Positions 25,009 through 62,128 of a stretch of DNA of 64,000 bases are shown here, piece by piece. Below the pieces are notes generated by a model. That model saw only the letters and a program-made list of their open reading frames with translations, was not told the DNA's origin and made no database searches. How positions within the stretch are numbered: the stretch's first letter is position 1; every line of letters starts with the position of its first letter. The translations under genes were made by a program, and so were the position numbers. Origin of the DNA: Anaerolineales bacterium (GTDB taxonomy: Bacteria > Chloroflexota > Anaerolineae > Anaerolineales > UBA11579); the NCBI GenBank assembly GCA_025808555.1, contig CP075526.1, positions 696,712 to 760,711 on the forward strand. The letters are read 5' to 3'.

Positions 25009-25009
25009 G

Positions 25010-26464
25010 CTAGTAGGAGAAGCCAGCATGGTTGCCATCCGGCCCGAAGAGTTGGGCCAGTTTGGCAGCGTCGCGGTGCAGCTCCAGACCCCAATTCAAC
25101 CACAGCAACGCGACGAGCAGCCCGGCAGCTACGACGCGAGGGGCACTGCGGCTGGCTTGCGCCAACAGCTCACGACGTTGTGACCAAGCATGGCCTGCAT
25201 AGACGGCCAGCACCGGCAGGATGGCAAGATGGAAACGGTCCTCCGCCATGAGGAGCATGTGAGGCACGATGTACCCTGCCAGCAGAAGAAGCACCAGCGT
25301 GTGTGCACGCGTGCTGCGAGCGAATGAAAAGCCAAGCGCGGCAAGGGTGGCGATGATAGGGAACGGCAGCGTGAAGAGCAGGAAAACGCCAACCAACGGC
25401 ACGGTTGGAATGCTGCCGAAGAAGTTGTTGGTATAGAAATAACTGATGGCGCGGCGCTCGAGGCCAAAAAAGTAGCCGAGCTTGCTGGCCATGAGACTTG
25501 GTACGCGGCCGGGGTCTTCTTTTATATAGTCGAGCGCCATTTGCGTACCGCGCGTGTTGCGTTCGCCGTCGTCGAGATAGGGCAAGAGCTCCAGCGAGAT
25601 GCCGTACTGGAAGGTTCCGGTGCCCTGCGGGTGGTAGCCCATGTGCAGGTTATAGCCCATCGAATTCTCGACGAAGGTGAACTGACCTTCGAGCAGGGTA
25701 TTGCGTATCGTCCAGGGCAGCACGAGCGCCAGCACGGCCGCGCCGTACAAAAATGCGCCGCGCACGTTGCGCAGGCCGAACAGGATCCAGAGACCGGCCA
25801 GGCCGGCGAAGGCGAAGATGACCGAACGGGTCAGCGTGGCAATGCCGAGGATAAGGCCGGCCAACAGCCAGTCACGGGCGCGCTGCTTCTCGGCAGCGCG
25901 CAGCAGGGCCAGCAGGCCGCCGAGCACCAGCGGGAAGAACAGGTTCTCTGTGGCGAGGGCCAGCGGATAGATGAGCAGCATCGGATAGGCGGCCAGCGCC
26001 AGCCCGGCGAAGCGGGCGACGCGCTCGTCATCGGGAAACAGGCGGCGGGCGAGGGCAAAGGTGAGCGGCGCCAGCAGCGCGCCGAGGGCGGCGTTGGCCA
26101 GGCGGGCGGCGAACAGGCGCCACTCCAGCCCGCTGAGGGTGTAGACGCCGGCGAGCAGGAAGGGATAGGCCGGGGCACGGAAGGAGGTCTCGATGCCACG
26201 CGGGTCATAGTCGGGCGCAATGAAGTCTATGTCGATGTAGCTGCGCATCAGGTCCAGGTCGGGCTGGGCGTACCAGCGGTAGCCCTGGCCGGCGGCGAGG
26301 CTGCGGCCAAGCATGTCGTACTGGAACATGTCATCGAGCCCGATGGGCAGGTTGATGGCGGCGATGACGGGGATGAGGCGCAGGATGAGGGCGAGGAGGA
26401 ACAGGCCTGCGGGCGAGAAGAGTTTGGGGAGGCGCATGGAATGGGCGGAATTATATGCTGGCAT
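25010..26464 (-). CDS. glycosyltransferase family 39 (ArnT/PMT-like) membrane protein
   Basis: About 12 TM helices, with an N-terminal loop PIGLDDMFQYD resembling the GT-C DxD/ExD loop. The start could instead be 26437. Confidence 0.6.
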   Translation of the reverse strand: MPAYNSAHSMRLPKLFSPAGLFLLALILRLIPVIAAINLPIGLDDMFQYDMLGRSLAAGQGYRWYAQPDLDLMRSYIDIDFIAPDYDPRGIETSFRAPAYPFLLAGVYTLSGLEWRLFAARLANAALGALLAPLTFALARRLFPDDERVARFAGLALAAYPMLLIYPLALATENLFFPLVLGGLLALLRAAEKQRARDWLLAGLILGIATLTRSVIFAFAGLAGLWILFGLRNVRGAFLYGAAVLALVLPWTIRNTLLEGQFTFVENSMGYNLHMGYHPQGTGTFQYGISLELLPYLDDGERNTRGTQMALDYIKEDPGRVPSLMASKLGYFFGLERRAISYFYTNNFFGSIPTVPLVGVFLLFTLPFPIIATLAALGFSFARSTRAHTLVLLLLAGYIVPHMLLMAEDRFHLAILPVLAVYAGHAWSQRRELLAQASRSAPRVVAAGLLVALLWLNWGLELHRDAAKLAQLFGPDGNHAGFSY

Positions 26465-27984: not shown

Positions 27985-28452
27985 TCATCTGGCTTCACGC
28001 TTCATCACCATAATGCGCTCATCTACCCGTTCAAATTCAGCGATCATGGCGGGCATCTGCGTCAGGCGGCGAAAATACTTCGGTAAATGCTCTCCCGCCA
28101 CTTCAATAAAGCCAAATTTCTCGTAGAGGGGCTTGAGGGCGGAGATGCTCATAAGGTACAGCTCGCTCGTGTGCTGAGCGAGCAGGCTTTCGATGATGGC
28201 ACGGCCGACGCCGCGGCCCTGCCAGGCTGGTACTACCGCGATGGAGGCCAGCTCCCAAGTGCCGTCTTTGTGTTGTTTGATCTGGCCGCAGCCAATAAAT
28301 TCGCCGACGGGCGTGAGGGCGACATGGAAGTTTTGCCAGTCAAGCCCATGCTGGAAAAGGTCGGCTTGCTCGATAAGCTGGCGGATGGGAGCAGCGTGCT
28401 GCGGCCCGGCGGGCTGGATGCTGAATTCGGGTAGCGCGGTGAGGTTATCCAC
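27985..28452 (-). CDS. GNAT family N-acetyltransferase
   Basis: IAVVPAWQGRGVGRAIIESLL. Confidence 0.85.
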   Translation of the reverse strand: MDNLTALPEFSIQPAGPQHAAPIRQLIEQADLFQHGLDWQNFHVALTPVGEFIGCGQIKQHKDGTWELASIAVVPAWQGRGVGRAIIESLLAQHTSELYLMSISALKPLYEKFGFIEVAGEHLPKYFRRLTQMPAMIAEFERVDERIMVMKREAR

Positions 28453-29902: not shown

Positions 29903-30176
29903 GGGGGGATTTTACCAACGTCAGGTTCATGAACTTAGCGAGCGTGAGGATTGCGGTTCAATAACCGGTTCAACGGAGGATTGCTTGCAGTGTGCTGCCG
30001 GCCTGCAGGTTATTGTACGCTCTACCGCAGGACTGCCCATGTGACTACCCACCTGGGTGCCAATTGAGTTTATACTTAACATGGCTTGATGGGGCCTGTG
30101 CCAAAACTCCACAACTGCATTGCAGTGCAACCGCCGGTCTGCTGGCACAAACGACAATCAAGAGGAACGTAAAACG

Positions 30177-32378
30177 ATGAAAAGTTCTCTGAATTCCAGC
30201 TGGAGACTAATTGTTGCTTTGACGCTAGTAGTCGTTTTGGCGCCGTTCCCCACACGACAGGCGAAAGCTGCCGGCGTTTCGCCGGCTAGCTATCTTGCAG
30301 AGGACGGCAGCCTGATGCTGCCAGCCGACTTCAGCGGCGCGCTGGATCTGACGGGCTGGGACGTGGGTCTGGATAGCCAGCGAGGCCTGGTGTTTCAACC
30401 CGCCGCGGCAATTGACGGCGCATGGAGCGCCCTAAACGATGTGGGTACAGGCTTGAACGGCAGCGGCAACACGATCGCGCTGGATGGCGGCACGGTGTAT
30501 GTGGGCGGCTTTTTTACCGATGCAGCAGGTGACCCGGATGCGGATAACATCGTCAAGTTAGAAGGCGGCGCCTGGACCACGCTGGGTGGGGCTAACACAG
30601 GGTTGAACCAGGGTGTCCGGGTGGTTGTGATCGATGGGGGTGTGATCTATGCCGGCGGCACCTTCACGGATGCCGGGGGTGATCCGGATGCGGATAACAT
30701 CGCCAAGTTTGAAAGCGGTGCATGGTCCTCTTTAGGCGGCGCCGGTACGGGTTTGAATTCGGGTGTATTAAGCATCACAATCGATGGCGGCATTATCTAT
30801 GCTGGAGGCAATTTCACGAACGCCGGCGGCGATCCAGACGCCGATCGGATCGCGCAATTCAGCGGCGGCAGTTGGTCTTCGCTGGGTGGGGCAAACAGCG
30901 ACCTGAACAACAGGGTAGAAGTAATCGAAGTTCACGGAGGGATTATTTACGCCGGCGGCGCCTTCCTGAATGCGGGGCTAGACCCTGATGCCAATTTCAT
31001 TGCCAAATTTGAAAGCGGCGCCTGGTCCTCGCTGGGAGGTGCCGGCACCGGCCTATCCGGCCCTGTTCTTGATCTTGTCATTTCCGGCGCGGTGATCTAT
31101 GCCGCCGGCGATTTTGTAAATGCCGGCGGGGATGCGGATGCCGATTACATTGCCAAGTTTGAGAGCGGCGCATGGTCATCCCTGGGCGGTTCGGGCAGCG
31201 GTCTCCCGGGGTATGTGGAGGTGCTGCTGATCTCCGGCGGGATTATTTACGTGGGCGGGGATTTCGACAACGCGGGCGGAGACCCAAATGCTGATCGAAT
31301 TGCCAAGTTTAGCGATGGCGCCTGGTCCTCCCTGAATGGGGCTAACACAGGTTTGAGTGACATTGTTAACGATATGGTGATCGTGGACAACGTACTGTAC
31401 GCCGTCGGCTCCTTTGAAAACGCCGGTGGCGATGCGGATACGGATTACGCGGCTCAATTTGGTCTGGTGTTTAGTAAACCCCAAACCACGACCCAACAGA
31501 TTTCAAGAGTAGAGATTGCTACCTCAGGTACCACTACGCTGGAGCTGGGTGATATTTCAGTTAGCCTGCCGGCTGAAGCCGTGACTGGTCTAGGCTCTTG
31601 TAGCTTGAGCATTCAAGACCTTGGCAATTCCGGCGATTTTGGATTTACTCTGAACGATAGCGTTTGGGATGTAGATATCACTTGTGACGGGGCAAACCAG
31701 CATATCTTCCTTGCGCCGATAACAATTTGTATTCGTCCCGAAGGAAGCACGGACGATAAAAAGATCTTCCATCGCGGGGATGCTGGCGGTTCCTGGGATC
31801 CGCTGGCGACGCTTAGCAGCTCCAGCGGCATGATCTGTGCCCACACGCGCACCCTCTCATTGTTTACATTAGGAAGTTTTAGTCTGCCGAATACTGGGTT
31901 TGCGCCTAATGTGGCAGCTGAACTGAACCCGAAAGCGGCGTATGCATCAACTGGATTACATCTCAGCATCCCCAAGCTTGGCCTGGCGACTGACATCGTC
32001 GGCGTTCCACAGGGCATCAATGGGTGGGATGTTAGCTGGCTGGGCGAGAGCGCCGGCTTCCTGCACGGCACTGCTTTCCCGACCCTTGCGGGAAACACGG
32101 TTATCACTGCTCATGTATGGGGCGCGGACAATCAGCCTGGCCCGTTTGCAGGATTGCATGGCTTACGGTACGGCGACCATATTAGTATCAATGCCTGGGG
32201 CCAAACATACACCTATGAGGTACGGACCAACACCAGCTACAGCCCCAGCAGCCTTAGCCCGCTGGCCACAACCGATCATGATTGGGTGACATTGATCACT
32301 TGCCAAGGTTTTGATGAAGTCAGCGGCGAATACCTGTTTAGACGGGTTGTGAGGGCGGTGCTAATCAGCATCGATTAG
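30177..32378 (+). CDS. secreted 7x50-aa repeat (propeller-like) protein with internal LPNTG and C-terminal sortase domain
   Basis: GAGGA SD lies before ATG 30177. Signal peptide is MKSSLNSSWRLIVALTLVVVLAPFPTRQAKA. Seven repeats run from 30420 to 31469. LPNTG is at 31884-31898. The sortase triad context is NTVITAH (His codon 32112-32114), TLITC (Cys codon 32301-32303) and RRVVRA. Confidence 0.8.
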   Translation: MKSSLNSSWRLIVALTLVVVLAPFPTRQAKAAGVSPASYLAEDGSLMLPADFSGALDLTGWDVGLDSQRGLVFQPAAAIDGAWSALNDVGTGLNGSGNTIALDGGTVYVGGFFTDAAGDPDADNIVKLEGGAWTTLGGANTGLNQGVRVVVIDGGVIYAGGTFTDAGGDPDADNIAKFESGAWSSLGGAGTGLNSGVLSITIDGGIIYAGGNFTNAGGDPDADRIAQFSGGSWSSLGGANSDLNNRVEVIEVHGGIIYAGGAFLNAGLDPDANFIAKFESGAWSSLGGAGTGLSGPVLDLVISGAVIYAAGDFVNAGGDADADYIAKFESGAWSSLGGSGSGLPGYVEVLLISGGIIYVGGDFDNAGGDPNADRIAKFSDGAWSSLNGANTGLSDIVNDMVIVDNVLYAVGSFENAGGDADTDYAAQFGLVFSKPQTTTQQISRVEIATSGTTTLELGDISVSLPAEAVTGLGSCSLSIQDLGNSGDFGFTLNDSVWDVDITCDGANQHIFLAPITICIRPEGSTDDKKIFHRGDAGGSWDPLATLSSSSGMICAHTRTLSLFTLGSFSLPNTGFAPNVAAELNPKAAYASTGLHLSIPKLGLATDIVGVPQGINGWDVSWLGESAGFLHGTAFPTLAGNTVITAHVWGADNQPGPFAGLHGLRYGDHISINAWGQTYTYEVRTNTSYSPSSLSPLATTDHDWVTLITCQGFDEVSGEYLFRRVVRAVLISID
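30420..31469 (+). repeat. seven in-frame tandem 150-bp (50-aa) coding repeats
   Basis: The (A/S)W(S/T)(S/A/T)L motif recurs exactly every 50 residues (ORF residues 101, 151 ... 401). Consensus: AWSSLGGAGTGLN..V..I.I.GGIIYAGG.F.NAGGDPDAD.IAKFESG. Confidence 0.9.
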
Positions 32379-35045: not shown

Positions 35046-35957
35046 CTATGGGTTGGGCTTGCGTGCGATGAATGTGAACGAACCGCTGGTGGAAAGTTGG
35101 CGATAGGCCTCGCTGGCGCGCTCGGAGCGAGTGAAAGCATACCCCAGCCACCACCACAGGCGATGGAGCGCCTGCAGCGGCGCCACCAGCAGGCGGCTTA
35201 GCCAGCCGGGCGCCATGCGGAACAGCGCCATGGCGCCGATGGCCTGCAAGGCCTGCCAATCGGGGGACGGGCTGACCGCCTGCACCTCAAAGCCCGCGTT
35301 GTGCAACGTATTATAAGTTGCCAGGTGGCTGTGGTGGTAGAAGCTGTCGTTGTGGAAGGGCTCCATAAATGAGACGGTGCCGATGAGGACGCCGCCGGGC
35401 TGCAGGCAGCGAAAGGCCTCCTGCATCATCACGAAGGGAAACTGGATGTGCTCCAGCACGGCGATGCTGAGGATGAACTCGAAGCTATTGTCTGCAAACG
35501 GCAGGGCGTGGCCATCGCCGCGGATCGGGGCTTCAGGCAGAACGTAATCCAACCCGACCCATTCGTAGCCGAAGGCCTCGGCGACCTCACGGTGGATGCC
35601 ATCACCACAGCCGAGGTCGAGCATGAGCGCATCCTTAGCGCGGGCGCGGGGGAAGTGGCTGACCAGCGTGCGGGTGAGATGCCAGGGAATATCGAGAGCG
35701 GCAAGGTCGAGGGCCGGGCTGGGATTAGGACGCAGCGGCTCGAAGGCAAAACCGGCCGGCACGGGCGCGCCGCCCAGGGTGAACTTCACCGTCTCCGGTT
35801 TGGGGCGCTGCAGGCGCAGGTCCAGCTGGCCATTGGCGTCGGCCGGGTACTGCAGGCCGCACTGCGTGCAGCCTGCCCCACCCGCCTGAGGACGCAGCGG
35901 TGAGCCACAGATGGGGCAGACGAGGGTGGCCCACACCCGTTCAGAGATCGTATGCAT
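35046..35957 (-). CDS. class I SAM-dependent methyltransferase with N-terminal zinc-ribbon
   Basis: CPICGSPL...CTQCG is the ribbon. The SAM motif I is MLDLGCGDG, followed by LQPGGVLI. Confidence 0.75.
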   Translation of the reverse strand: MHTISERVWATLVCPICGSPLRPQAGGAGCTQCGLQYPADANGQLDLRLQRPKPETVKFTLGGAPVPAGFAFEPLRPNPSPALDLAALDIPWHLTRTLVSHFPRARAKDALMLDLGCGDGIHREVAEAFGYEWVGLDYVLPEAPIRGDGHALPFADNSFEFILSIAVLEHIQFPFVMMQEAFRCLQPGGVLIGTVSFMEPFHNDSFYHHSHLATYNTLHNAGFEVQAVSPSPDWQALQAIGAMALFRMAPGWLSRLLVAPLQALHRLWWWLGYAFTRSERASEAYRQLSTSGSFTFIARKPNP

Positions 35958-51509: not shown

Positions 51510-52067
51510 TTACTCAGCAGCAGGAGCGTCAGCCGCAGGAGCTTCTTCTGCCGGAGCAGCGGGGGCTTCGGCAGCGGGGGCTTCGGCGGCTTCAGCAGCC
51601 GGGGCCTCAGCGGCCGGCGCTTCAGCAACTGGAGCTTCAGCTACGGCTTCGGCGGCAGGGGCTGCGGCTGCCGGAGCAGCAGCCGGGGCCGGGGCAGCCT
51701 TCTTGCGGCTGCTGGTGGCCGGAGCCGGGAAGCTGGTGCGGCCATCCGCATTGCGGATCTTGGCCGCGGCGTCAGCCTCGGCCAGCAGGGTCTCCAGGCT
51801 TTCGCCGGCCTTGAAGCGCTCATAGCGCGCCATCAGGCCCGCCTGCTGGAACACCTGCTGGGCGGATTCGCTGGGCTGGGCGCCATTGCTGATCCAGTGG
51901 TAAATGCGATCTTCCTGCAACGCGATGGTGGCAGGCTTGGTGCGCGGGTTGTAAGAACCCAGCACCTCGATGAAACGGCCTTTGGCCGGGCTTTCTTTGT
52001 CGGCCGCCACGATGCGGAAGCTAGCCTGATTGTGGCCGCCAACGCGGCGCAGTCTAATACGTACCAT
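51510..52067 (-). CDS. rpsP: 30S ribosomal protein S16 with Ala/Glu/Pro-rich C-terminal tail
   Basis: MVRIRLRRVGGHNQASFRIVAADKESPAKGRFIEVLGSYNP. The tail is AEAPAAEAPAAEAAEAPAAEAPAAP. Confidence 0.93.
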   Translation of the reverse strand: MVRIRLRRVGGHNQASFRIVAADKESPAKGRFIEVLGSYNPRTKPATIALQEDRIYHWISNGAQPSESAQQVFQQAGLMARYERFKAGESLETLLAEADAAAKIRNADGRTSFPAPATSSRKKAAPAPAAAPAAAAPAAEAVAEAPVAEAPAAEAPAAEAAEAPAAEAPAAPAEEAPAADAPAAE

Positions 52068-54547: not shown

Positions 54548-54673
54548 GTCACCTCGCCTGAAATTATACTGGCGGGTCTCATTAGTCCAAACGGCTGTTA
54601 AACCAGACTCAACATTCCCCCTGTCTTGCCCTACAATACTCTGGCAGCCAAAAGCTGGGCTGCCAGTCTGCTT

Positions 54674-57600
54674 ATGACGATTGTTCTCACTAAAGTGCGG
54701 GCCCCGCAGCGGCGCAAAGACGTTTTGCGCCGCGTGCGGCTGGTGGATACGCTGCACCAGAACCTGCACCGCAAACTGACCTTTGTTTCGGCCCCCGCCG
54801 GCTACGGCAAAACCACCCTGCTGGTGGATTTTGCCGCGGATGTGGACGCCCACGTATGCTGGTACCGCATCGGGCCTGAGGATGGCGACCTGGTGCAGTT
54901 CGCCCAGCACATCGTAGCGGCCTTCCAGCAGGAGTTCCCCGGCTTCGGCAAAGCGCTCGAAGAGCGTCTGAACACCCCCGGAGCGCGGCCAGACGCCCCC
55001 AGCATTGCCACCGAGATCATCAATGCTGTGCAGGAACAGGTGCCGGATTTCAGCGTACTGGTGCTGGACGATTACCACCTGGCGGGCGAGAACCAGCAGA
55101 TCGTCGATCTTCTCGAGAACCTGCTTGAGCATTTGCCAGACCATCTGCGCATCCTGATCGGCTCGCGCAGCGTATACGGCATCCCGGCCGCCAGCTTGTA
55201 TATCCGTGACGAACTGGTCACCATCAGCGCGGATGAGCTGCGCTTCCGCGCCGATGAGCTGCAAAAGCTGGTGCTGCAGAACTACCGCATGCGCCTCTCG
55301 CAAGAAGAAGCCGAAGAGCTGGCCAAGCGGGCCGATGGCTGGATCGTGGCCCTATTGCTGGCCGTGCGCGCCATGAGCACCGGCGGCCTGCCGCGCTTCC
55401 TGGGCAATACCGAGCAGATCTATACCTACCTGGCTGAAGAAGTGGTCAGCCAGCAAAGCGAGGACCTGCGCGAGTTCATGCTGGGCGCCTCGATCTTTAG
55501 CGACTTTGCAGAAGCCCAGTGCAATTATGTGATGCGGCGTGAAGACTCGGGTGATATGCTGCGCGCCCTCGAGGAGCGCAACCTGTTCGTCAGCCGCACC
55601 GAAACGCGTGAAGGCAGCAGCTATCGCTTTCACCAGCTGTTCTCAGAATTCCTGCAGGATTATTTTGCCCGCCATAACCCCGCCCTGCTGGGCAGCCTGC
55701 ACGCCCGCGCCGCCGATTGGCACTTCCAACGCCGGGAGTGGGAGAACGCCGTCCAGCACAAGTTCGCCTCAGGCGAAGTGCAGGCTGCCGCGGCGTGGAT
55801 GGATTCCGCCGCTGAACATTTCTACACCACTGGCCGCCAGGCCCTGCTGGCGCGCTGGCTGGAAGACCTAGATAAGACGCCCGGCCTGCGCCAGCACGCG
55901 CCGCGCCTGATCCTGTACCAGGCCAAGTCACTGGGCAACCAAAGCCAGTTTGAAGCATGCCTCAAGCTGCTGGCCCAGGCCGAACCGATCCTGAAACAGC
56001 GCGGCGACGCCGAGTTGCTGGCCAATGCCTTTATCACCCGCGGCATGGTGTATCGCTTTACCGGCAAGCCCAAAGACGCGATAGACCTGGCCGAATCCGC
56101 GCAGGAGCTGCTGGCCGGTGAACTCAAGAACAGCCTGCAGTGGTACCAGGCAGAACGTTTGCGCGGCGTAGCGCTGCATCTGCTAGGTAAAACCGAAACT
56201 GGAATCGAACACATCAACATGGCAGTAGCGGGCTTACGCCAGCTGGCCGAGAAGACCTCTGAAACCATGCGCCCGGTCTATCTCTTCGACCTGGCGGAAT
56301 GCCTCAATGACCTTGGACTGATCCATATCACCAGCGGGCAAATGCTCAGCGCCCAACAAGCCTTCGAGGAAGTGTTGGATATCCATGTCAGCATCCGAAG
56401 CAATCTGGGCGCCCTGGCTTCTGCTCGCAACAACATTGCCTACTTGCAACACCAGATCGGGCAACACCAGGCCTCATGGAAGCAGTACACCCAAGCACTT
56501 GCCTATGTGAAGGCCTCAGGCAGCGCGCGCGTACATATTGGCATCCTTAGCGGCCAGGGGGCTTTGTTGCTGGACGCAGGGGACCCGCTTGAAGCCCGGG
56601 TCTGCTTGCTGGCTGCGGTGGAAGTGGGTGAAGCCACAGGCGAGCTGCAGGAGCTGGTGCCAGTCTACGTAAGCATGGCGCGGGTCACCAGCGCCCTGGG
56701 CGACTACAACGAAGCCATGGCGTGGCTACGCAAAGCCGCCAGCCAGGCCGGCTCACGCTTCAGCCGCGCCGAGTATGCCCTGCACATGGGCTGGACCTAT
56801 GCCAATATGCAGCAGCACGACCTGGCGCTGCAGCAGCTTGAGCTCGCCATGCAGAACTGGGGCGAGCAACCCCAGCAGGACCAGGTAACCGCTGCCTTCC
56901 TGCGCGCCTGCATTCTGTACGCCCAGGGCGAGGAAGCCGAGGCCGACCCGTTGTTGGCCTTGGCGCTGGAGGGTGCAGCGCGGCTGGGCTATCAGCAATT
57001 CCTCATTCCGCTGGCGCGGGATTGGCAAAACGCTCTGGGGCGCGCCCAGGCCAAATCTCCATCGCCCCAACTGGCGGACATCCTGGAGCAAGCCAGCCGC
57101 CCCAATTTCACCCGCAGCATGCTCGAAGGGACAGAAGAGGGAGCCACGACAGAACCGCAGCAGCTGGAAGTGCATACGCTGGGCGGCTCTGAGATCCGCC
57201 GCAATGGCGAAGTGCTGCCGGTCACGATCTGGCGCTCCACACGCGCCCGCTCACTCTTCATTTACATACTGGATCGCGGCCGGGTACGCAAGGATGCGAT
57301 CGGCATCCACTTCTGGCCTGATTTCAGCCCCGGGAAGGTGAGCAGCAATTTCCACGCCACCCTGTGGCGCGTGCGCCAGGCGCTGGGCTTCAAAGACTCG
57401 ATCGTCTTTGAAGATGAGCACTACTCGCTGCACCCCAGCATCCAAACCTGGTATGACGCCGCAGAGTTCGAGAACTACATGCGCATGGCCACCACCGCCG
57501 GGCTGGAGGAAGCCGAGCCAGCTGAGCAAGCCGAGATGCTGCGCCAGGCGCTACGCTTGTACCGCGGGCCTTATTTGGAAGATGTATATATGGAGTGGGC

Positions 57601-57901
57601 CGACGAACGCCGCGAGGAGCTGCGCAGCCTGTACCTGGGCGGGTTGGAACTGCTGGGCGATATTGAGGTCAGGGCCAAACGCTTCCGTGAGGCTCGTGAG
57701 ATCTATGAGCGCATCGTAGCCAGCGACCCCTACCGTGATGAAGCCCATCTGGCCCTCATGAAGAGCATGGCCGATTCAGGGGCTACATCTGCTGCCATCC
57801 TGCACTACAAGGAATACCAGAAACTACTACGCAAGGAGCTGAACGCCGAGCCGATCGAGGCTCTGAAAACCTACTACCAGCAGCTGACCATTAGTGTCTA
57901 G
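54674..57901 (+). CDS. STAND-type regulator: MalT-like ATPase + TPR region + C-terminal SARP (wHTH + BTAD) module
   Basis: LTKVRAPQRRKDVLRRVRL and Walker A FVSAPAGYGKTTLL, with Walker B VLVLDDYH. A long helical-repeat middle follows. The C-terminus is LEVHTLGGSEIRRNGEVL...RSLFIYIL...ALRLYRGPYLEDVY..W....R..L...Y. Confidence 0.8.
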   Translation: MTIVLTKVRAPQRRKDVLRRVRLVDTLHQNLHRKLTFVSAPAGYGKTTLLVDFAADVDAHVCWYRIGPEDGDLVQFAQHIVAAFQQEFPGFGKALEERLNTPGARPDAPSIATEIINAVQEQVPDFSVLVLDDYHLAGENQQIVDLLENLLEHLPDHLRILIGSRSVYGIPAASLYIRDELVTISADELRFRADELQKLVLQNYRMRLSQEEAEELAKRADGWIVALLLAVRAMSTGGLPRFLGNTEQIYTYLAEEVVSQQSEDLREFMLGASIFSDFAEAQCNYVMRREDSGDMLRALEERNLFVSRTETREGSSYRFHQLFSEFLQDYFARHNPALLGSLHARAADWHFQRREWENAVQHKFASGEVQAAAAWMDSAAEHFYTTGRQALLARWLEDLDKTPGLRQHAPRLILYQAKSLGNQSQFEACLKLLAQAEPILKQRGDAELLANAFITRGMVYRFTGKPKDAIDLAESAQELLAGELKNSLQWYQAERLRGVALHLLGKTETGIEHINMAVAGLRQLAEKTSETMRPVYLFDLAECLNDLGLIHITSGQMLSAQQAFEEVLDIHVSIRSNLGALASARNNIAYLQHQIGQHQASWKQYTQALAYVKASGSARVHIGILSGQGALLLDAGDPLEARVCLLAAVEVGEATGELQELVPVYVSMARVTSALGDYNEAMAWLRKAASQAGSRFSRAEYALHMGWTYANMQQHDLALQQLELAMQNWGEQPQQDQVTAAFLRACILYAQGEEAEADPLLALALEGAARLGYQQFLIPLARDWQNALGRAQAKSPSPQLADILEQASRPNFTRSMLEGTEEGATTEPQQLEVHTLGGSEIRRNGEVLPVTIWRSTRARSLFIYILDRGRVRKDAIGIHFWPDFSPGKVSSNFHATLWRVRQALGFKDSIVFEDEHYSLHPSIQTWYDAAEFENYMRMATTAGLEEAEPAEQAEMLRQALRLYRGPYLEDVYMEWADERREELRSLYLGGLELLGDIEVRAKRFREAREIYERIVASDPYRDEAHLALMKSMADSGATSAAILHYKEYQKLLRKELNAEPIEALKTYYQQLTISV

Positions 57902-57994
57902 GCAAGGAAATTGCATCTTACAAGCAAGAAATTACGGGAAAAGCTACTCGATTTGGGTGGCTTTTTTTGACCCATGCTCATAGCTGCGTTCATA

Positions 57995-58016
57995 GGCCGC
58001 TTTATACAATGCGGCC
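57995..58016. promoter_or_regulatory. palindrome GGCCGC-N10-GCGGCC spanning a TACAAT box upstream of the repeat-peptide gene
   Basis: GGCCGCtttatacaatGCGGCC. TACAAT is at 58005-58010, about 40 nt before ATG 58051, in an unusually AT-rich spacer. Confidence 0.35.
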
Positions 58017-58050
58017 AATCTAATCAAAAAGAAATAGGAGATTTACAAAC

Positions 58051-58248
58051 ATGACCAAGAAATTTGCTTTCGCTCATCCCGTCGGCGGTGGTATCGGCAC
58101 CGCCCCCCAAAGCAACCATCCTGTTGGCGGCGGCATCGGCACTGGCCCCGGCCTGTCCCACCACCCCGTCGGCGGCGGTATCGGCACCGCTCCCCAAGGC
58201 AACCATCCTGTTGGCGGCGGCATCGGCACTGGCCCCACCACTCTGTAA
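58051..58248 (+). CDS. 65-aa repeat peptide, 4 x HPVGGGIGT(A/G)P units, unknown family
   Basis: AGGAG at 58036-58040 lies 10 nt before the ATG. It is on the same strand as its neighbours, has GC-rich third positions, and the substitutions between repeat cores are mostly synonymous. Confidence 0.6.
   Translation: MTKKFAFAHPVGGGIGTAPQSNHPVGGGIGTGPGLSHHPVGGGIGTAPQGNHPVGGGIGTGPTTL
58075..58245 (+). repeat. A-B-A'-B' tandem coding repeat (42/45/42/42 nt)
   Basis: Units are at 58075-58116, 58117-58161, 58162-58203 and 58204-58245. B and B' share an identical 33-nt run, CATCCTGTTGGCGGCGGCATCGGCACTGGCCCC. Confidence 0.9.
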
Positions 58249-58299
58249 ATTTGTAACCACCTTAATCGAACTAACAGTACTCGCCTTAGGAGACCTACA

Positions 58300-58515
58300 A
58301 TGTCCAAGCTGAAACTGAACGCTATCGCAACTCTCGCTTTGGTAGACCAGGATTTCAAAGCTGCTGTTCTGAGCGGCCGTCTGCAGGAAAAGTTGGGCGC
58401 CTTCCAGCTGAACGAGGAAGAAATGCGCGCCATCACGGCCATCCAGGCGATGGATCTGGACCAGTTCATGCGCCGCCTCGGCTCGCTGATCCAGACCTCG
58501 GCGGCTGTACACTAA
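58300..58515 (+). CDS. 71-aa helical protein resembling NHLP/Nif11-type leader-like proteins
   Basis: AGGAG at 58288-58292 lies 7 nt before the ATG. LNAIATLALVDQDFKAAVLSGRLQEKLGAFQLNEEEMRAITAIQAMDLDQFMRRL fits my recollection of the NHLP-clan pattern, which I have not verified. Confidence 0.6.
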   Translation: MSKLKLNAIATLALVDQDFKAAVLSGRLQEKLGAFQLNEEEMRAITAIQAMDLDQFMRRLGSLIQTSAAVH

Positions 58516-58609
58516 GAAGCTCTAGCATTACTTTGGGATAGCTGCCCTACTCCCGGCAGCAAGCACCGTTCCCTTAACATGACGCATGCCCGCAAGATGA
58601 GCAGCGCTT

Positions 58610-61600
58610 ATGGGTATTGAGACAATGCTGCTGGCTTCCTTCAAAGACTCACCCTCGCGTCAAAACGCTCCGGACGCGGATTCTTTGCGCAACCTGAGCA
58701 AGGTCAAAGCGCTGGTTGAGCACAGCGCCGACGCGGTCCTCATCCTGCATCCGGAGAGCGGCAAGATCCTGGTAGCCAACCAGAGCGCCCTGCTGCTGTT
58801 CGAGGCCGACGAGGGAGCGCTGTACGGGCTCACCTTCAACCAATTGAGCGCAACCAAGAACGCGCCCAAAACCTCGCCGTTGGACCGCTATGCGGATTAT
58901 GTGCAGCGCGTACGGGCCGGCGAATCCCCAGAGTTTGAATGGCAGGGGCGCACTCCCAGCGGCAAGCAGATCTCCGGCAAGGCGCAGATGTCAACTTTGC
59001 CTGTAAAGGATGCGGAGTTCATCCGTATTCATATTTCGCACCCCGAAGTCGAAGCCGCCAGCTGGGTTGAGGACAGCCAGCATGTTGATGAGCTGGCAGC
59101 CCTGGCACTGACTGGCGCCAGCATTGCCTCCAGCCTGGATATTGACAAAGTGATGGAAGTGGTCGGCAAGCAGCTGGCCACCCTGCTCGAGGCCAACACC
59201 TTCATAGCCTACGACTGGCTGGCCAACAGCAAAGACCTGCGCATGCGCCATAGTTACACTATGGCACGCAGCCAGCCGAAACCGGTTGCGCCCCATTTGG
59301 ATGTCAGCAACGTGCTGGAGTTGGGCCGCCCGGTGCAAAAACAGATCGACGCCAGCACCACTACGGCCGCTGAAAAGAAGGCCATGAAGTCTGCCGGGGC
59401 GACGACCGTGCTTATATTGCCACTCATTGCGCAGAGCAAGACCATCGGCCTGGCCGAATTGCAAGACAAGCGCGAGGGCCACACCTTCAGCAGCCGCGAG
59501 ATCTATTTGGCGCAGACCCTGTGCCACCAGGCCGCCGTCGCCATTGAAAATGCCCGTCTGTTCCAGGCCACTCGCCGCCAGCTGCAGGAGTTGACCATTT
59601 TGCAGCAAGTGGCCAACGCCACCACCGAGGCCAACAGCGTGGACGAGCTGATCGAGAGCGCCACCCAGTTGATCCGCCACAGCATTTACTCGGATAACTT
59701 CGGCATCATTCTATTGGGTGAAGACGGGCAACTGCACATTCATCCCTCCTACGAATCGGCCCCCGAGGTTGCCAGTAAGCCCATCCCGCTGGGCCAGGGC
59801 GTCACCGGCCGCGTAGCCCAGTCCGGCAAACCCATGCGCATCGCCGACACGCGCCAGGAAGCCAATTACCTGGACTACGACCAGCAAACCCTTTCCGAGC
59901 TGTGCGTGCCGATGAAGATCGGCGAGCGTGTAATTGGCATCATCAACACGGAAAGCCGCGAGCTCAACCACTTCACCGAAGACGACGAGCGCCTGCTGCT
60001 CACGCTGGCCGGCCAGCTGGCCACCGGCATCGAGCGCCTGCGCAACGCAGCCGCCGAAGGCCGCCGCACGCATCAACTGGCAGTTCTCAATGAGCTCACC
60101 AGCCGCATGAGCGGCGTGCTGGAGCGCGACAAACTGTTCCAGATCATTGTCGAGTGCCTGCACCGCCGCATGGGCTACTACTCCACCGACATCTCCCGCG
60201 TGGATGATGACACCCAGTCCTACATCGTGGAGGCTGTGGCCGGCGGCTTTGAACTCGTGGCCGAGCGCCAGGGCTACACCCAGCCTTTCGGGCTGGGCCT
60301 GCTGGGGTTGGCTGCCCGCACAGGCGAAATAGTTCACACCAACAATGCCAGCGCCCATCCGAACTTCTTCATGGTGGAAGGCTTTGCCAGGATCCAATCA
60401 GAGATTGTCATCCCGATCAAGATCTACAACAAGGTGTATGCCTTGCTGAACATTGAAAGCCAGCAAGCCAACGCGTTTGACGATTACGAGATCGCCGCCC
60501 TATCCACGCTGGGGGATCAGATCTCCATGTTCCTGGAGAGCGTGCATCTGTTCGAGTCGACCAAGCGCCAGCTTCAGGAGCTCACCGTGCTGCACGCCAT
60601 CACCCAGGCGGCGGTTAATGCCCGCACCCAGGATGAGCTGATCGAGCGCGCCACCGAGATCATCGGCGCCAGCTTGTATACAGACAAATTTGGCTTCCTC
60701 ACCATGCACCCGGATGGCGATAAGCTGATCGTACATCCATCCTATAGAGGTATCACTCCGCAGGATCTGTCTCGAATGGTGACGCTGTCCGAAGGCGTGA
60801 CCGGCCGCGTGGCGGCCACCGGCAAAGCCTGGCGTGTGCCGGATGTGCGCAAGGAGCCCAGCTACATGCGCATCAACCCCAACATGCGCTCTGAGCTGTG
60901 CGTGCCCATCCTCGGCAACGGCAACCGCGTGCTGGGCGTGATCAACGCCGAGAGCATACGCGTGAACGCGTTCACCGACTCGGACCTGCGCCTGCTCAGC
61001 ACGATCGCCGGCCAGATCGGCACGGCCATTGAGAAGCTGCACTTGTTGCAATCCGAGCGCTTCCAGCGCAGCCAGGCCGAGACCCTGCGCGAGGTGGCCG
61101 CCATCCTGGGCTCCGCCGCAGACCGGGCCAGCGTGCTGGATCTGATCCTCGAGCAGCTCAAGCGCGTCGTGCCGTTCGACAGCGCGTCAGTTCAGCTGGT
61201 GCGCGGTGAAAACCTGATCGTGCACGCGGTGGCGGGCAACTTGGAGTCGGCCGTGGTCGGCCTCGAACTGCCGATCAAAGAAGACAAATTCGCCCACCCG
61301 TTGCTGTTCGAACAGCGCACCGTGCTATATGAAGACATCAGTGACCACCCCGACTGGCTGCAGCTGGAAGGCGCCAGCAATGTGAAATCATGGATCGGTG
61401 CACCGCTGATCGCCCGCGGCGCCTGCATTGGTGTGCTGACCGTGGACGGATACACCGCAAAGCAGTTCTCGCAGGCCGATGCCGACCTGGTGGCCACTTT
61501 CGCCATCCACGCCGGCATTGCGTTGGAGAATGTACGCCTGTTTGAAGAAGCGCAGGACGCCTATCTGCAAACCGTCAGCGCCCTGGCCAGCGCCATTGAC

Positions 61601-62128
61601 GTGCGTGACACCTATACCAGCGGCCACAGCCAGCGCCTGGTGGATATGGCCGTGGAAACCGGCCGCCTGCTGGGCTGCACTCCACAGGAGCTGGTTGACA
61701 TCAAATGGGGCGCCCTGCTGCATGACATTGGAAAGATCGGCGTGCCGGATGAGATCCTGCGAAAGCCCAGCTCACTGGAACAAGCTGAACTAGAAGTGAT
61801 GCGCCAGCACCCTGAGATCGGCGCCCGCATTGTGGAGCCGGTGCGCAACCTGGCCACCGTGGCCCCCATCATCCGTGCCCACCAGGAACGCTATGACGGC
61901 TCGGGCTACCCTGACGGGCTCAAGGGTGATCAGATCCCCAAGATCGCCCGCATCATCAGCGTGGCCGACGCCTATGTGGCCATGACTGACGAGCGTGTGT
62001 ACCGCAAAGCGCGTTCGAAGGAAGAAGCCATCGCCGAGCTTAAGCGCTGCAGCGGTACGCAATTCGACCCGCTGGTGGTTGAGGCGTTCCTGCAGGTGCT
62101 TGACACCTGCAACGGCGACGAAACCTAG
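58610..62128 (+). CDS. PAS + multi-GAF (about five) + HD-GYP domain protein (putative c-di-GMP phosphodiesterase)
   Basis: N-terminal PAS (VEHSADAVLILHPESGKILVANQSA). Repeated GAF blocks each have GVTGRVA..GK..R..D and SELCVP. The C-terminus has HSQRL..., HDIGKIGVPDEIL and HQERYDGSGYPDGL. Confidence 0.85.
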   Translation: MGIETMLLASFKDSPSRQNAPDADSLRNLSKVKALVEHSADAVLILHPESGKILVANQSALLLFEADEGALYGLTFNQLSATKNAPKTSPLDRYADYVQRVRAGESPEFEWQGRTPSGKQISGKAQMSTLPVKDAEFIRIHISHPEVEAASWVEDSQHVDELAALALTGASIASSLDIDKVMEVVGKQLATLLEANTFIAYDWLANSKDLRMRHSYTMARSQPKPVAPHLDVSNVLELGRPVQKQIDASTTTAAEKKAMKSAGATTVLILPLIAQSKTIGLAELQDKREGHTFSSREIYLAQTLCHQAAVAIENARLFQATRRQLQELTILQQVANATTEANSVDELIESATQLIRHSIYSDNFGIILLGEDGQLHIHPSYESAPEVASKPIPLGQGVTGRVAQSGKPMRIADTRQEANYLDYDQQTLSELCVPMKIGERVIGIINTESRELNHFTEDDERLLLTLAGQLATGIERLRNAAAEGRRTHQLAVLNELTSRMSGVLERDKLFQIIVECLHRRMGYYSTDISRVDDDTQSYIVEAVAGGFELVAERQGYTQPFGLGLLGLAARTGEIVHTNNASAHPNFFMVEGFARIQSEIVIPIKIYNKVYALLNIESQQANAFDDYEIAALSTLGDQISMFLESVHLFESTKRQLQELTVLHAITQAAVNARTQDELIERATEIIGASLYTDKFGFLTMHPDGDKLIVHPSYRGITPQDLSRMVTLSEGVTGRVAATGKAWRVPDVRKEPSYMRINPNMRSELCVPILGNGNRVLGVINAESIRVNAFTDSDLRLLSTIAGQIGTAIEKLHLLQSERFQRSQAETLREVAAILGSAADRASVLDLILEQLKRVVPFDSASVQLVRGENLIVHAVAGNLESAVVGLELPIKEDKFAHPLLFEQRTVLYEDISDHPDWLQLEGASNVKSWIGAPLIARGACIGVLTVDGYTAKQFSQADADLVATFAIHAGIALENVRLFEEAQDAYLQTVSALASAIDVRDTYTSGHSQRLVDMAVETGRLLGCTPQELVDIKWGALLHDIGKIGVPDEILRKPSSLEQAELEVMRQHPEIGARIVEPVRNLATVAPIIRAHQERYDGSGYPDGLKGDQIPKIARIISVADAYVAMTDERVYRKARSKEEAIAELKRCSGTQFDPLVVEAFLQVLDTCNGDET

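What the first reader, a model, noticed from the sequence alone, without database searches (positions are those of the whole stretch)
54674..62128. Four-gene same-strand locus (ATPase-TPR-SARP regulator, repeat peptide, NHLP-like protein, PAS-5xGAF-HD-GYP) with no maturase nearby
The intergenic gaps are 149, 51 and 94 nt, and all four genes are on the plus strand. The locus is bounded by the divergently oriented pdp and the convergent queA. SARP/BTAD activators classically switch on secondary-metabolite clusters. HD-GYP proteins hydrolyse c-di-GMP, and the five GAF domains imply small-ligand sensing. The 64 kb contain no radical SAM, YcaO, lanthionine synthetase, P450, peptidase-ABC exporter or other recognisable RiPP tailoring gene. 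Either the small proteins are unmodified, for example signalling or metal ligands sensed by the GAF array, or the modifying enzymes are encoded elsewhere. I am not aware of a described system with this composition.
Basis: inference. Interest (0 to 1): 0.7.

Follow-up and report, generated by a model that had tools for sequence, protein, structure and literature searches.

The report
Glycine-repeat peptide signalling cassette, Chloroflexota
The four genes are a real, widely conserved and apparently undescribed regulatory cassette of filamentous Chloroflexota: a large ATP-driven activator next to a tiny glycine-rich peptide, a small helper protein and a c-di-GMP-degrading enzyme, most likely a peptide-signalling circuit rather than an antibiotic-type peptide cluster.

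Summary
All four + strand genes, the gaps of 149/51/94 nt and the domain calls are correct. About 50 ORFs of the 64 kb window hold no recognisable RiPP maturase.

The synteny is not confined to this genome. The set recurs in about 20 Anaerolineales species. Distant Chloroflexota (regulator 27-29% identical) keep the same core in at least five unrelated neighbourhoods:
- a MalT-type STAND-TPR-SARP regulator, followed by a terminator;
- two direct repeats 8-9 nt upstream of a -10 box;
- a small Gly-rich peptide;
- an Os1348/PF14407-like (NHLP-clan) small protein;
- a variable signalling enzyme (HD-GYP most often, otherwise a histidine kinase or an MscS-cNMP channel).

In the distant versions the peptide is a Sec-type propeptide. 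Its 9-13-residue tail (e.g. GPSIGGVGS) resembles one unit of the window's leaderless 4x xPxGGGIGx concatemer.

Best reading, inferred at about 0.4: a peptide-pheromone-like feed-forward circuit. It follows RRNPPA logic with a non-RRNPPA receptor and controls c-di-GMP hydrolysis.

The RiPP reading is weakened. The 71-aa protein has no core, and in one relative its domain is fused to a receiver domain.

I found no description in the literature. Nothing has been tested experimentally.

The parts
54609..54637 (+). Sigma-70-like promoter candidate for the regulator gene (TCAACA-17-TACAAT)
   Evidence: Consensus scan only. This is weak evidence.
54674..57901 (+). REG: a MalT-type STAND NTPase, then WHD/arm, TPR sensor region and a C-terminal SARP module (wHTH + BTAD); 1075 aa
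   Evidence: The ATG at 54674 agrees with the N-termini of orthologues. REG aligns over its full length with the regulators of the distant cassettes (27-29% identity, E 1e-129 to 1e-132).
57935..57969 (+). Intrinsic-terminator-like hairpin with a U-run, closing the regulator transcript
   Evidence: A 15-bp stem of -21.6 kcal/mol, z -3.05 against shuffles. An equivalent 'GGTAGCC-TTTTTT' element is visible in most relatives.
57974..58017 (+). Activator-type promoter. Direct repeats TCATAG at 57978-57983 and 57990-57995 (12-nt period), then 9 nt, then the -10 box TACAAT at 58005-58010. There is no -35 consensus.
   Evidence: The element occurs once per locus, always on the + strand between REG and the first small gene, in 59 sources. 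Several of these were not used to build the profile (nhmmer). It is the only hit in the 64 kb window (E 2.8e-11). Distant cassettes carry the equivalent GTGAGTA x2 at an 11-nt period, 8 nt from TATAAT, and L072 has GTTAATAG x2.
58051..58248 (+). PEP: a 65-aa leaderless peptide with 4 tandem units of (N/S/H)-H-P-V-G-G-G-I-G-T; the SD is at 58036-58040
   Evidence: It is conserved in 36 distinct peptides, 136 units in all, with 2-5 copies (27 have 4) and a 14-residue period in 92 of 100 spacings. The residue after Pro is uniform within 35 of 36 peptides but takes 7 different values between them. Synonymous third-position variation is seen.
58300..58515 (+). A 71-aa Os1348/PF14407-like (LigA/NHLP-clan) small helical protein with no core-peptide tail; the SD is at 58288-58292
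   Evidence: 29 invariant columns; five-helix model, pLDDT 82.
58610..62128 (+). Output enzyme: (PAS)-5xGAF-HD-GYP, a putative c-di-GMP phosphodiesterase, 1172 aa
   Evidence: the HD and GYP motifs are visible in the translation. No terminator-like element lies in the 94-nt gap, so co-transcription with the small genes is plausible but unproven.

Best explanation
The locus is one member of a conserved Chloroflexota signalling cassette.

Shown:
- A STAND-TPR-SARP regulator gene ends in a terminator.
- It is followed by a promoter that lacks a -35 box and instead carries two direct repeats placed 8-9 nt upstream of the -10 box.
- That promoter heads an operon encoding a Gly-rich peptide, an NHLP-clan small protein and a signalling enzyme.

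Inferred:
- The regulator's C-terminal SARP module binds the direct repeats and switches the operon on.
- Its TPR sensor is controlled by the Gly-rich peptide, or by a fragment of it. This would give a positive-feedback, pheromone-like circuit with the logic of Rap-Phr, PlcR-PapR or AimR-AimP.
- The final output in this clade is more PAS-GAF-HD-GYP enzyme, and therefore lower c-di-GMP.

In distant relatives the peptide is made as a Sec-type propeptide. Signal-peptidase cleavage after an AxA site would release a 9-13-residue xPxGGGxG(S/G) peptide outside the cell. In the window's clade the export signal is gone and the same unit is repeated about four times. The peptide there is therefore either a polyprotein pheromone exported or processed by an unknown route, or an intracellular multivalent ligand.

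The NHLP-like protein is an obligatory third partner. Its role is unknown. My guess is an adaptor or antagonist that binds the peptide or the regulator, not a RiPP precursor.
For: (1) Core conservation across contexts. REG + peptide + NHLP-like is found in these settings:
- Window clade, flanked by pdp and queA.
- dnaX-ybaB-recR neighbourhood, with DUF5317 and an HK, a short HD-GYP or a 112-aa unknown protein.
- With an MscS-cNMP channel.
- With REC-GAF-HD-GYP, X-HD-GYP or PAS-GAF-GAF.
- With an upstream 7TM-PAS-GAF-HK and an NHLP::REC fusion.
REG sits directly upstream of the NHLP-like gene wherever upstream DNA is present in the 33 metagenome loci.

(2) The promoter element is conserved. Its geometry matches SARP sites, which are heptamer direct repeats with an 11-nt period about 8 nt from the -10 box (established knowledge for Streptomyces SARPs).

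(3) Propeptide architecture in 13 relatives. A K/R-containing n-region is followed by a hydrophobic h-region, a Pro near -6, small residues at -3 and -1 (VFA|, ALA|, AYA|, AWA|, AHA|), and a Gly-rich tail. Pro is at +2 and never at +1. L058 has a window-clade-like NHLP protein but a propeptide-type peptide, which links the two forms.

(4) The repeats are homogeneous within a peptide but differ between species. Copy number varies from 2 to 5, and the PEP-NHLP unit is tandemly duplicated in some loci.

(5) Precedent. RRNPPA receptors bind peptides in a TPR groove, their propeptide genes lie next to the receptor gene, and tandemly duplicated pheromone propeptides exist (PMC9765709, PMC11343458).

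(6) Against a RiPP role. The 71-aa protein ends right after the conserved domain. The domain is fused to REC in P0091 and to an M78 peptidase in P0125. No maturase was found in any neighbourhood.
Against: - There is no experimental or expression data of any kind.
- The window's peptide has no signal sequence, so secretion is unsupported in this very clade.
- No Opp-type importer or processing protease is linked to the locus.
- The regulator is not an RRNPPA protein, and peptide binding to its TPR region is pure inference.
- A peptide-versus-regulator covariation test was inconclusive.
- The role of the always-present NHLP-like protein is unexplained by this model.
- Signal-peptide cleavage was judged by eye; SignalP was not available.
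- Within the window clade the whole region is collinear, so linkage to the HD-GYP gene rests mainly on the recurrence of HD-GYP in other clades.
Confidence: 0.4

Rival explanations
1. Split RiPP system. The Gly-rich peptide and/or the NHLP-clan protein are precursors modified by enzymes encoded elsewhere in the genome, and REG is the pathway-specific SARP activator.
For: - The 71-aa protein belongs to the Os1348/PF14407 lineage that is annotated as RiPP precursors (PMC8939145 and PMC12353581).
- More distant members carry variable C-terminal tails of 10-70 residues, like cores.
- Multi-copy core peptides are common in RiPPs.
- SARPs classically control biosynthetic clusters (established knowledge).
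Against: - No maturase, protease-transporter or RRE protein was found in the 64 kb window, nor within 8-10 kb in any of five or more independent contexts.
- The window-clade protein has no core and no GG site.
- The domain is fused to a receiver domain in P0091.
- The constant neighbours are signalling enzymes.
- The propeptide form has an ordinary Sec signal, not a RiPP leader.
Confidence: 0.15
2. Enzyme-centred module. The peptide and/or the 71-aa protein are intracellular ligands or partner proteins sensed by the GAF/PAS array, or otherwise bound to the output enzyme. REG merely transcribes the operon in response to an unrelated small-molecule effector, as MalT does with maltotriose.
For: - The genes are tightly packed on one strand, with no terminator before the HD-GYP gene.
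- GAF/PAS-containing outputs recur.
- The peptide is leaderless in this clade.
- The N-terminal half of REG is MalT-like.
Against: - Outputs without any GAF also occur: a 249-aa HD-GYP, 262-272-aa HisKA-HATPase proteins and an MscS-cNMP channel. The peptide and the NHLP-like protein stay constant throughout.
- The number of GAF domains (0-5) does not track the peptide copy number.
- The propeptide forms point to an extracytoplasmic product.
Confidence: 0.17
3. Co-regulated but mechanistically unrelated genes. The Gly-rich peptide is a small envelope or membrane-associated structural or stress peptide, and the NHLP-like protein is an unrelated small protein. They are kept together only as targets of the same activator.
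For: - The propeptide forms could stay membrane-anchored if they are not cleaved.
- DUF5317, a polytopic membrane protein, is inserted into one branch.
- No receptor-ligand evidence exists.
Against: - The order regulator-peptide-NHLP is strict across 27-29% regulator identity and changing neighbourhoods.
- The AxA site with Pro at +2 is conserved.
- Unit homogenisation within a peptide, with divergence between species, is typical of specificity-determining signals.
- The PEP-NHLP unit is tandemly duplicated in some loci.
Confidence: 0.1
4. NLR-type amyloid signalling (BASS-like). The STAND protein and the short Gly-rich motif form a templating pair, as described for filamentous bacteria.
For: A STAND NTPase-TPR protein lies next to a short G-rich repeated motif in a filamentous lineage. 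The concept is described in Dyrka et al., bioRxiv 10.1101/2020.01.06.895854.
Against: - BASS pairs need the same motif at the NLR N-terminus and at the partner's C-terminus. REG starts directly with the NTPase and holds no GGG[IVL]G or PxGxGG motif anywhere.
- There is no Bell-domain partner.
- The effector is a DNA-binding SARP module.
- The units contain two prolines per 14 residues.
Confidence: 0.03

Closest known systems
RRNPPA quorum-sensing cassettes of Bacillota and their phages (Rap-Phr, NprR-NprX, PlcR-PapR, PrgX, AimR-AimP)
   Same: - The gene for a cytoplasmic TPR-containing receptor/regulator is followed directly by a small propeptide gene.
- In relatives the propeptide has a Sec signal, and the short active part lies at the C-terminus.
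- Tandemly duplicated pheromone units are known (PMC11343458).
- Autoinduction logic.
   Different: - The receptor here is a roughly 1075-aa MalT-type STAND ATPase with a C-terminal SARP (wHTH-BTAD) output. It is not an HTH/phosphatase + RNPP-type TPR protein.
- The phylum is Chloroflexota.
- An NHLP-clan small protein is an extra constant partner.
- The window-clade peptide has lost the signal peptide.
- No Opp link was found, and nothing has been tested.
SARP-family and 'large SARP' regulators (AfsR: SARP + NB-ARC + TPR) of actinomycetes
   Same: The same three module types are present. The target promoter has direct repeats replacing the -35 box, 8-9 nt from the -10 box (an 11-nt period in the distant branch).
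   Different: - The domain order is inverted: NTPase-TPR first and SARP last.
- The NTPase is MalT-like rather than NB-ARC-like.
- The target is a peptide/c-di-GMP operon, not a biosynthetic cluster.
- The repeat period in this clade is 12 nt.
MalT of E. coli (STAND transcription activator)
   Same: The N-terminal ~490 residues match the MalT model (E 1.3e-74). The WHD_MalT and TPR_MalT families hit the orthologues. A sensor-ligand-plus-ATP oligomerisation mechanism is expected.
   Different: The score is far below the equivalog cut-off (252 against 537 bits). The LuxR-type HTH is replaced by wHTH-BTAD. The ligand is unknown.
Os1348 family NHLP-clan proteins (NF038399) / Pfam PF14407 Frankia_peptide (LigA-like domain X-group of ECOD, together with NHase alpha, Nif11 and ComX)
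   Same: The ~65-residue helical domain is homologous. Profile-level links are seen. The relative P0168 passes the NF038399 cut-off. Nitrile hydratase alpha chains are the best PDB sequence hits.
   Different: - The window protein scores 18.3 (cut-off 40) and 14.1 (cut-off 48).
- It has no C-terminal core and no double-glycine site.
- There is no ATP-grasp or other maturase.
- It is always paired with a regulator and a Gly-rich peptide.
Multi-copy pheromone or morphogen precursors: yeast alpha-factor (4 tandem copies); PatS/PatX of filamentous cyanobacteria (own knowledge)
   Same: Several identical short units lie in one precursor. A short peptide acts on a transcription factor in a filamentous multicellular bacterium.
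   Different: There is no sequence relation and no pro-region or Kex2-type sites. The window peptide has no export signal.

Membership tests
SARP (wHTH + BTAD) transcription activators | OmpR-type wHTH followed by a BTAD domain | tested here: met
   PF03704 BTAD scores 79.2 bits against a cut-off of 22.1, at residues 928-1071. The AfsR model aligns residues 818-1070 to its positions 16-264.
SARP (wHTH + BTAD) transcription activators | Target promoter with direct repeats overlapping the -35 region, about 8 nt from the -10 box | tested here: met
   TCATAG-N6-TCATAG-N9-TACAAT at 57978-58010, conserved in 59 sources. GTGAGTA repeats at an 11-nt period, 8 nt from TATAAT, occur in the distant branch. 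Binding itself was not tested.
STAND / MalT-type NTPase regulators | N-terminal P-loop NTPase + WHD + arm + TPR sensor | tested here: met
   The MalT model hits residues 4-487 at E 1.3e-74 (below the equivalog cut-off, so MalT-like rather than MalT). AAA_16/AAA_22 hits are present. WHD_MalT and TPR_MalT hit the orthologues.
RRNPPA quorum-sensing systems | Receptor of the RRNPPA TPR family (5-9 TPRs with an N-terminal HTH or phosphatase domain) | tested here: not met
   There is no RNPP_C or HTH_XRE hit in the window regulator. The only hit is a 0.0014, sub-threshold RNPP_C match inside the BTAD region of L029 REG. The architecture is STAND-SARP.
RRNPPA quorum-sensing systems | Adjacent small ORF with an export signal and a C-terminal mature peptide | tested here: inconclusive
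   This is met by eye in 13 relatives: n-h-c regions, an AxA site and a 9-13-residue tail. It is not met in the window, where only 6-10 residues precede the first unit and there is no hydrophobic stretch. SignalP was not available.
RRNPPA quorum-sensing systems | The peptide binds the TPR groove and changes receptor activity; re-import by Opp | not testable with these tools
   This needs binding assays or genetics. The covariation proxy was inconclusive.
NHLP / Os1348 / PF14407 RiPP precursors | Score above the curated family cut-off | tested here: not met
   NF038399 gives 18.3 bits against 40, and PF14407 gives 14.1 against 48. Relatives score as follows: P0168 45.6 (passes), P0196 39.9, P0047 31.
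NHLP / Os1348 / PF14407 RiPP precursors | A leader followed by a cleavage motif and a core peptide | tested here: not met
   The protein ends about 6 residues after the conserved domain and has no GG motif. In 28 family members the last positions vary but are not extended.
NHLP / Os1348 / PF14407 RiPP precursors | Co-located tailoring enzyme (ATP-grasp, radical SAM, LanM, YcaO and the like) and an export protease | tested here: not met
   None was found among about 50 window ORFs, nor in the precomputed Pfam tables of neighbours.
HD-GYP c-di-GMP phosphodiesterases | An HD_5 domain with the HD and GYP motifs | tested here: met
   PF13487 scores 129.8 bits. 'HDIGK' and 'GSGYPDGL' are present in the translation. 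Activity was not tested.
BASS / NLR amyloid signalling pairs | The same short motif at the N-terminus of the NLR and the C-terminus of a Bell-domain neighbour | tested here: not met
   No motif is present in REG, and there is no Bell-domain gene.
Known anti-phage defence systems (STAND/Avs-like) | Match to a PADLOC model | tested here: not met
   There were no hits for any of the four proteins or for DUF5317.

The most novel reading that the evidence does not exclude
A phylum-wide, so far undescribed peptide-signalling system of Chloroflexota in which a STAND ATPase with a SARP output is the receptor for a short xPxGGGxG peptide. In the window's Anaerolineales clade the pheromone has lost its export signal and become a leaderless tetravalent concatemer. 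It would then work inside the cell, or along the filament, as a multivalent ligand that nucleates oligomerisation of the STAND regulator. The NHLP-clan protein would act as its chaperone or antagonist, and c-di-GMP hydrolysis would be the read-out.
Probability: 0.2. Interest if true: 0.85.

Novelty: new variant of a known kind. Interest (0 to 1): 0.64.

Why it matters
Peptide-receptor communication of the cytoplasmic-receptor type is so far described essentially for Bacillota and their phages (PMC9765709, PMC11343458). Filamentous Chloroflexota are abundant in wastewater, sediments and soils, and almost nothing is known about how their cells signal to each other.

If this cassette is such a system, four things follow:
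- Peptide signalling extends to another phylum, with a different receptor class: a STAND ATPase fused to a SARP module.
- It is tied directly to c-di-GMP, and so to filament, biofilm and motility decisions.
- An NHLP-clan domain gains a non-biosynthetic role, which cautions against annotating such proteins automatically as RiPP precursors.
- A precise operator (57974-58017) and defined peptides are now available for immediate biochemical testing.

Tried and rejected
- The protein search with the 65-aa peptide found only one fragment. The peptide is probably low-complexity or often uncalled, so peptides were recovered from the locus DNA instead.
- The AlphaFold model of the 71-aa protein (pLDDT 82) has no significant PDB fold match.
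- Alignments A2 and A3 were too diverse for the search for related loci, so A1 and A4 were used.
- Rfam gave no hit in the window, so no riboswitch is involved.
- PADLOC gave no hits, so this is not a known defence system.
- BASS amyloid pairing was rejected because REG carries no shared motif.
- A leader-peptide or attenuation role for PEP was considered and rejected. Relatives encode signal-peptide forms, and the downstream genes have nothing to do with glycine.
- PEP and the 71-aa ORF are in frame across a single TAA, which suggested read-through. The frame relation is not conserved in L003 and L005, so this is taken as coincidence.
- Covariation of peptide type with regulator subdomains gave a residual rho of about -0.23. 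The pairs are not independent and phylogeny confounds the test, so it is inconclusive.
- My first regex for an 11-nt repeat period found nothing. The period in this clade is 12 nt.
- The hairpin in the gap before the HD-GYP gene is not significant (z -0.58).
- Literature searches for DUF5317, Franean1_4349, Os1348, and RRNPP plus Chloroflexi found no description.

Full report
**1. Observation**

- REG, 54674-57901
- a 65-aa repeat peptide (PEP), 58051-58248
- a 71-aa protein, 58300-58515
- a 1172-aa protein, 58610-62128

The gaps are 149, 51 and 94 nt, and both small ORFs have AGGAG ribosome-binding sites.

Pfam and NCBIfam support the domain calls:
- REG has a MalT-type STAND NTPase N-terminal half (E 1.3e-74, below the equivalog cut-off), TPRs, and a C-terminal wHTH+BTAD (SARP) module.
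- The last gene has five GAF stretches and an HD_5 domain with the HD and GYP motifs. Its PAS match is sub-threshold.
- The 71-aa protein hits PF14407 and NF038399 (Os1348 NHLP clan) only below threshold.

TRF finds the peptide repeat. pdp lies divergently upstream and queA convergently downstream.

I scanned about 50 ORFs of the window against Pfam. They are housekeeping genes, among them FtsW-PBP, TyrS, FtsK, Lgt, LspA, Alr, GatB, TopA-side genes, thiolase and exonuclease VII. None is a radical SAM RiPP enzyme, YcaO, lanthionine synthetase, P450, ATP-grasp or peptidase-ABC exporter. Rfam finds nothing.

**2. Are the small ORFs genes?**

The 71-aa protein has 44 database clusters at 61-99% identity, all about 70 aa and all from Anaerolineales MAGs. 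Twenty-nine of its columns are invariant.

The peptide is present in every complete related locus. Across 36 distinct peptides and 136 units:
- The unit is x-x-P-x-G-G-G-(I/V/T)-G-x. Units were picked with the pattern ..P.G.G.G., so Pro and three of the Gly positions are fixed by the search. Gly at the one unconstrained motif position occurs in 135 of 136 units.
- The period is 14 residues in 92 of 100 spacings.
- Copy number runs from 2 to 5, and 27 peptides have four copies.

In 135 distinct unit DNA sequences the third codon positions of the Pro and Gly codons vary freely while the amino acids stay fixed. Selection therefore acts on the translated product.

The residue after Pro is the same in all units of 35 of 36 peptides. 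Between peptides it takes seven values (M, V, I, L, C, T, R). This pattern of uniformity within a peptide and difference between species is what specificity-determining signal peptides show.

**3. Synteny**

In 20 GTDB species representatives and many metagenome contigs the order is S16-DegV-pdp-REG-PEP-NHLP-HDGYP-queA. The whole region is collinear in that clade, which by itself says little about function.

The decisive evidence comes from distant relatives found with a family profile. Their NHLP-like proteins are 30-49% identical to the window's. Their regulators are 27-29% identical over the full length (E ~1e-130). Their flanking genes are entirely different. The core is kept in each case:

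| Loci | Order |
|---|---|
| L029-L034, L038 (next to dnaX-ybaB-recR) | REG - 35-43-aa peptide - DUF5317 membrane protein - PF14407/Os1348 protein - HisKA-HATPase, or a 249-aa HD-GYP, or a 112-aa unknown |
| L035, L036, L039, L040 | REG - peptide - NHLP-like - MscS channel with a cNMP-binding domain |
| L041 | REG - peptide - NHLP-like - REC-GAF-HD-GYP |
| L070 | REG - peptide - NHLP-like - 391-aa HD-GYP |
| L068 | REG - peptide - NHLP-like - PAS-GAF-GAF |
| L072 | 7TM-PAS-GAF-HK - REG - peptide - NHLP-like domain fused to a receiver domain |

REG lies directly upstream of the NHLP-like gene wherever upstream DNA exists in the 33 metagenome loci. The conserved core is therefore regulator + peptide + NHLP-like protein. 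The output gene is exchangeable but is always a signalling protein, most often an HD-GYP.

**4. The peptide in relatives is a propeptide**

In the distant cassettes the small ORF has this layout:
- a charged N-terminus;
- a 15-20-residue hydrophobic stretch;
- often a Pro near -6;
- a small-x-small site;
- a 9-13-residue Gly-rich tail.

Examples, with the predicted cleavage marked by |:
- ...FPQVVFA|GPSIGGVGS
- ...APQVAHA|NPTGGGWGS
- ...LPEAAYA|FPTSGGVGG
- ...FPGVALA|GPGGGGSGSR
- ...TSSAYA|MPDGGGGCGTPGC
- ...HVAWA|GDLGGGGGVGGG
- ...ALA|AGAPVGFGGQ

This is the textbook shape of a Sec signal peptide with a signal-peptidase I site. Pro is at +2 and never at +1, consistent with the known intolerance of that enzyme for Pro at +1 (established knowledge). 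I judged this by eye.

The predicted released tail has the same pattern as one unit of the window peptide (HPVGGGIGT, QPTGGGIGG). L058 carries a window-clade-like NHLP protein together with a propeptide-type peptide, which bridges the two forms. I conclude, by inference, that the window peptide is a leaderless concatemer of the unit that relatives secrete singly.

**5. A conserved activator-type promoter**

Three elements lie between REG and PEP in the window:
- A strong terminator-like hairpin at 57935-57969 (z -3.05).
- TCATAG-N6-TCATAG at 57978-57995.
- After 9 further nt, the -10 box TACAAT at 58005-58010, with no -35 consensus. The sigma-70 scan accordingly did not call this promoter.

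A profile of this element hits exactly once per locus, on the + strand and in this position, in 59 sources. It gives a single hit in the 64 kb window (E 2.8e-11). The sequences used to build the profile match by construction. L017, L022, L047, L052, L059-L061 and L070 were not among them.

The dnaX-linked branch has GTGAGTA x2 at an 11-nt period, 8 nt upstream of TATAAT. L072 has GTTAATAG x2. Direct repeats in place of the -35 box, about 8 nt from the -10 box, are the known geometry of SARP-dependent promoters (established knowledge). The simplest reading is that REG activates the peptide operon.

**6. What the 71-aa protein is**

Its family profile reaches PF14407-labelled proteins. The relative P0168 passes the NF038399 cut-off and P0196 is borderline. 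The three best PDB sequence hits are nitrile hydratase alpha chains (best E 0.029). ECOD curators place PF14407 in a LigA-like group with NHase alpha, Nif11 and ComX (PMC12353581).

'NHLP-like' is therefore right at clan level. Several features speak against a RiPP-precursor role:
- The window protein fails both curated cut-offs.
- It ends right after the domain and lacks any Gly-Gly site.
- Relatives have the domain fused to a receiver domain (P0091) or to an M78 peptidase (P0125).
- Some loci duplicate the PEP-NHLP unit in tandem.

These features point to a protein-interaction or regulatory role. Its exact function remains unexplained.

**7. Mechanism proposed**

Shown: the cassette, its promoter architecture, coding constraint on the peptide, the homology relations and the exchangeable outputs.

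Inferred:
- REG binds the repeats and activates PEP, the NHLP-like gene and the output gene.
- The peptide, secreted in relatives, is the ligand of REG's TPR sensor. This gives an autoinducing loop like the RRNPPA systems, whose receptors bind peptides in a TPR groove and whose propeptide genes sit next to the receptor gene (PMC9765709). Tandemly duplicated pheromone propeptides are documented there (PMC11343458).
- In this clade the loop raises a PAS-GAF-HD-GYP enzyme and lowers c-di-GMP.

I give this reading about 0.4. The weakest points are the missing export signal in this very clade, the unexplained NHLP-like partner and the complete lack of expression or binding data. A covariation test was inconclusive.

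**8. Rivals**

- A split RiPP pathway with remote maturases (0.15).
- An enzyme-centred module in which the small proteins act on the GAF/HD-GYP protein (0.17).
- Mere co-regulation of unrelated small proteins (0.10).
- BASS-type amyloid signalling (0.03; the motif is absent from REG).

A known defence system is excluded by PADLOC.

**9. Novelty**

Full-text searches found no description of this cassette, of DUF5317, or of Os1348/PF14407 proteins in a signalling context. The parts belong to known families, and the inferred logic is that of a known kind, a cytoplasmic TPR receptor plus an adjacent propeptide. The receptor class, the NHLP-clan partner, the leaderless concatemer and the phylum are new. 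I rate it a new variant of a known kind, interest 0.64.

Noticed in passing
window 51510-52067 (-): Ribosomal protein S16 carries a C-terminal extension of about 90 residues rich in Ala, Pro and Glu. The orthologues in relatives are also long, at 164-212 aa.
   Followed up: no
window 58246-58299: PEP and the 71-aa ORF are in the same reading frame, separated by one TAA and 16 sense codons. The same holds in L001 but not in L003 or L005, so it is probably coincidence rather than programmed read-through.
   Followed up: partly
window 24391-25038 (-): A CPBP/Rce1-like intramembrane protease lies 33 kb from the locus. Members of this family process some peptide pheromones (MroQ/AgrD, own knowledge). 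No linkage to the cassette was shown.
   Followed up: no
window 30120-32378 (+): A 752-aa protein has a C-terminal sortase domain and a long N-terminal region with no family match.
   Followed up: no
window 11053-12954 (-): A 633-aa protein gives weak 7TM (HisKA_7TM) and GAF matches, but no kinase domain was detected. In L072 a 7TM-PAS-GAF-GAF histidine kinase sits directly upstream of the cassette's regulator.
   Followed up: no
L001-L007, about 3 kb downstream of the cassette (e.g. L001 16756-18111): A PAS-GGDEF diguanylate cyclase gene follows queA-ruvB-upp in most window-clade relatives. This places a c-di-GMP synthase near the HD-GYP gene. In the window it would lie beyond position 64000.
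   Followed up: no
L043 2402-3047; L051 642-1476; L052, L055-L057: The NHLP-like gene or the PEP-NHLP unit is tandemly duplicated, for example REG-NHLP-PEP-NHLP-GAF. L047 and L050 appear to lack PEP between REG and the NHLP-like gene.
   Followed up: partly
L029 7327-7899; L031, L033, L038: DUF5317, a polytopic membrane protein of about 190 aa with no literature, is inserted between the propeptide gene and the Os1348 gene in one branch only. It starts 10 nt after the propeptide gene's stop codon.
   Followed up: partly
L025 679-4351: An insertion of about 3.6 kb lies between pdp and the regulator gene in one relative.
   Followed up: no
window 12978-13526 (-) and 27985-28452 (-): Two GNAT acetyltransferases and a class I SAM methyltransferase (35046-35957) are present. 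All are generic families, far from the locus, and are not considered tailoring enzymes.
   Followed up: no
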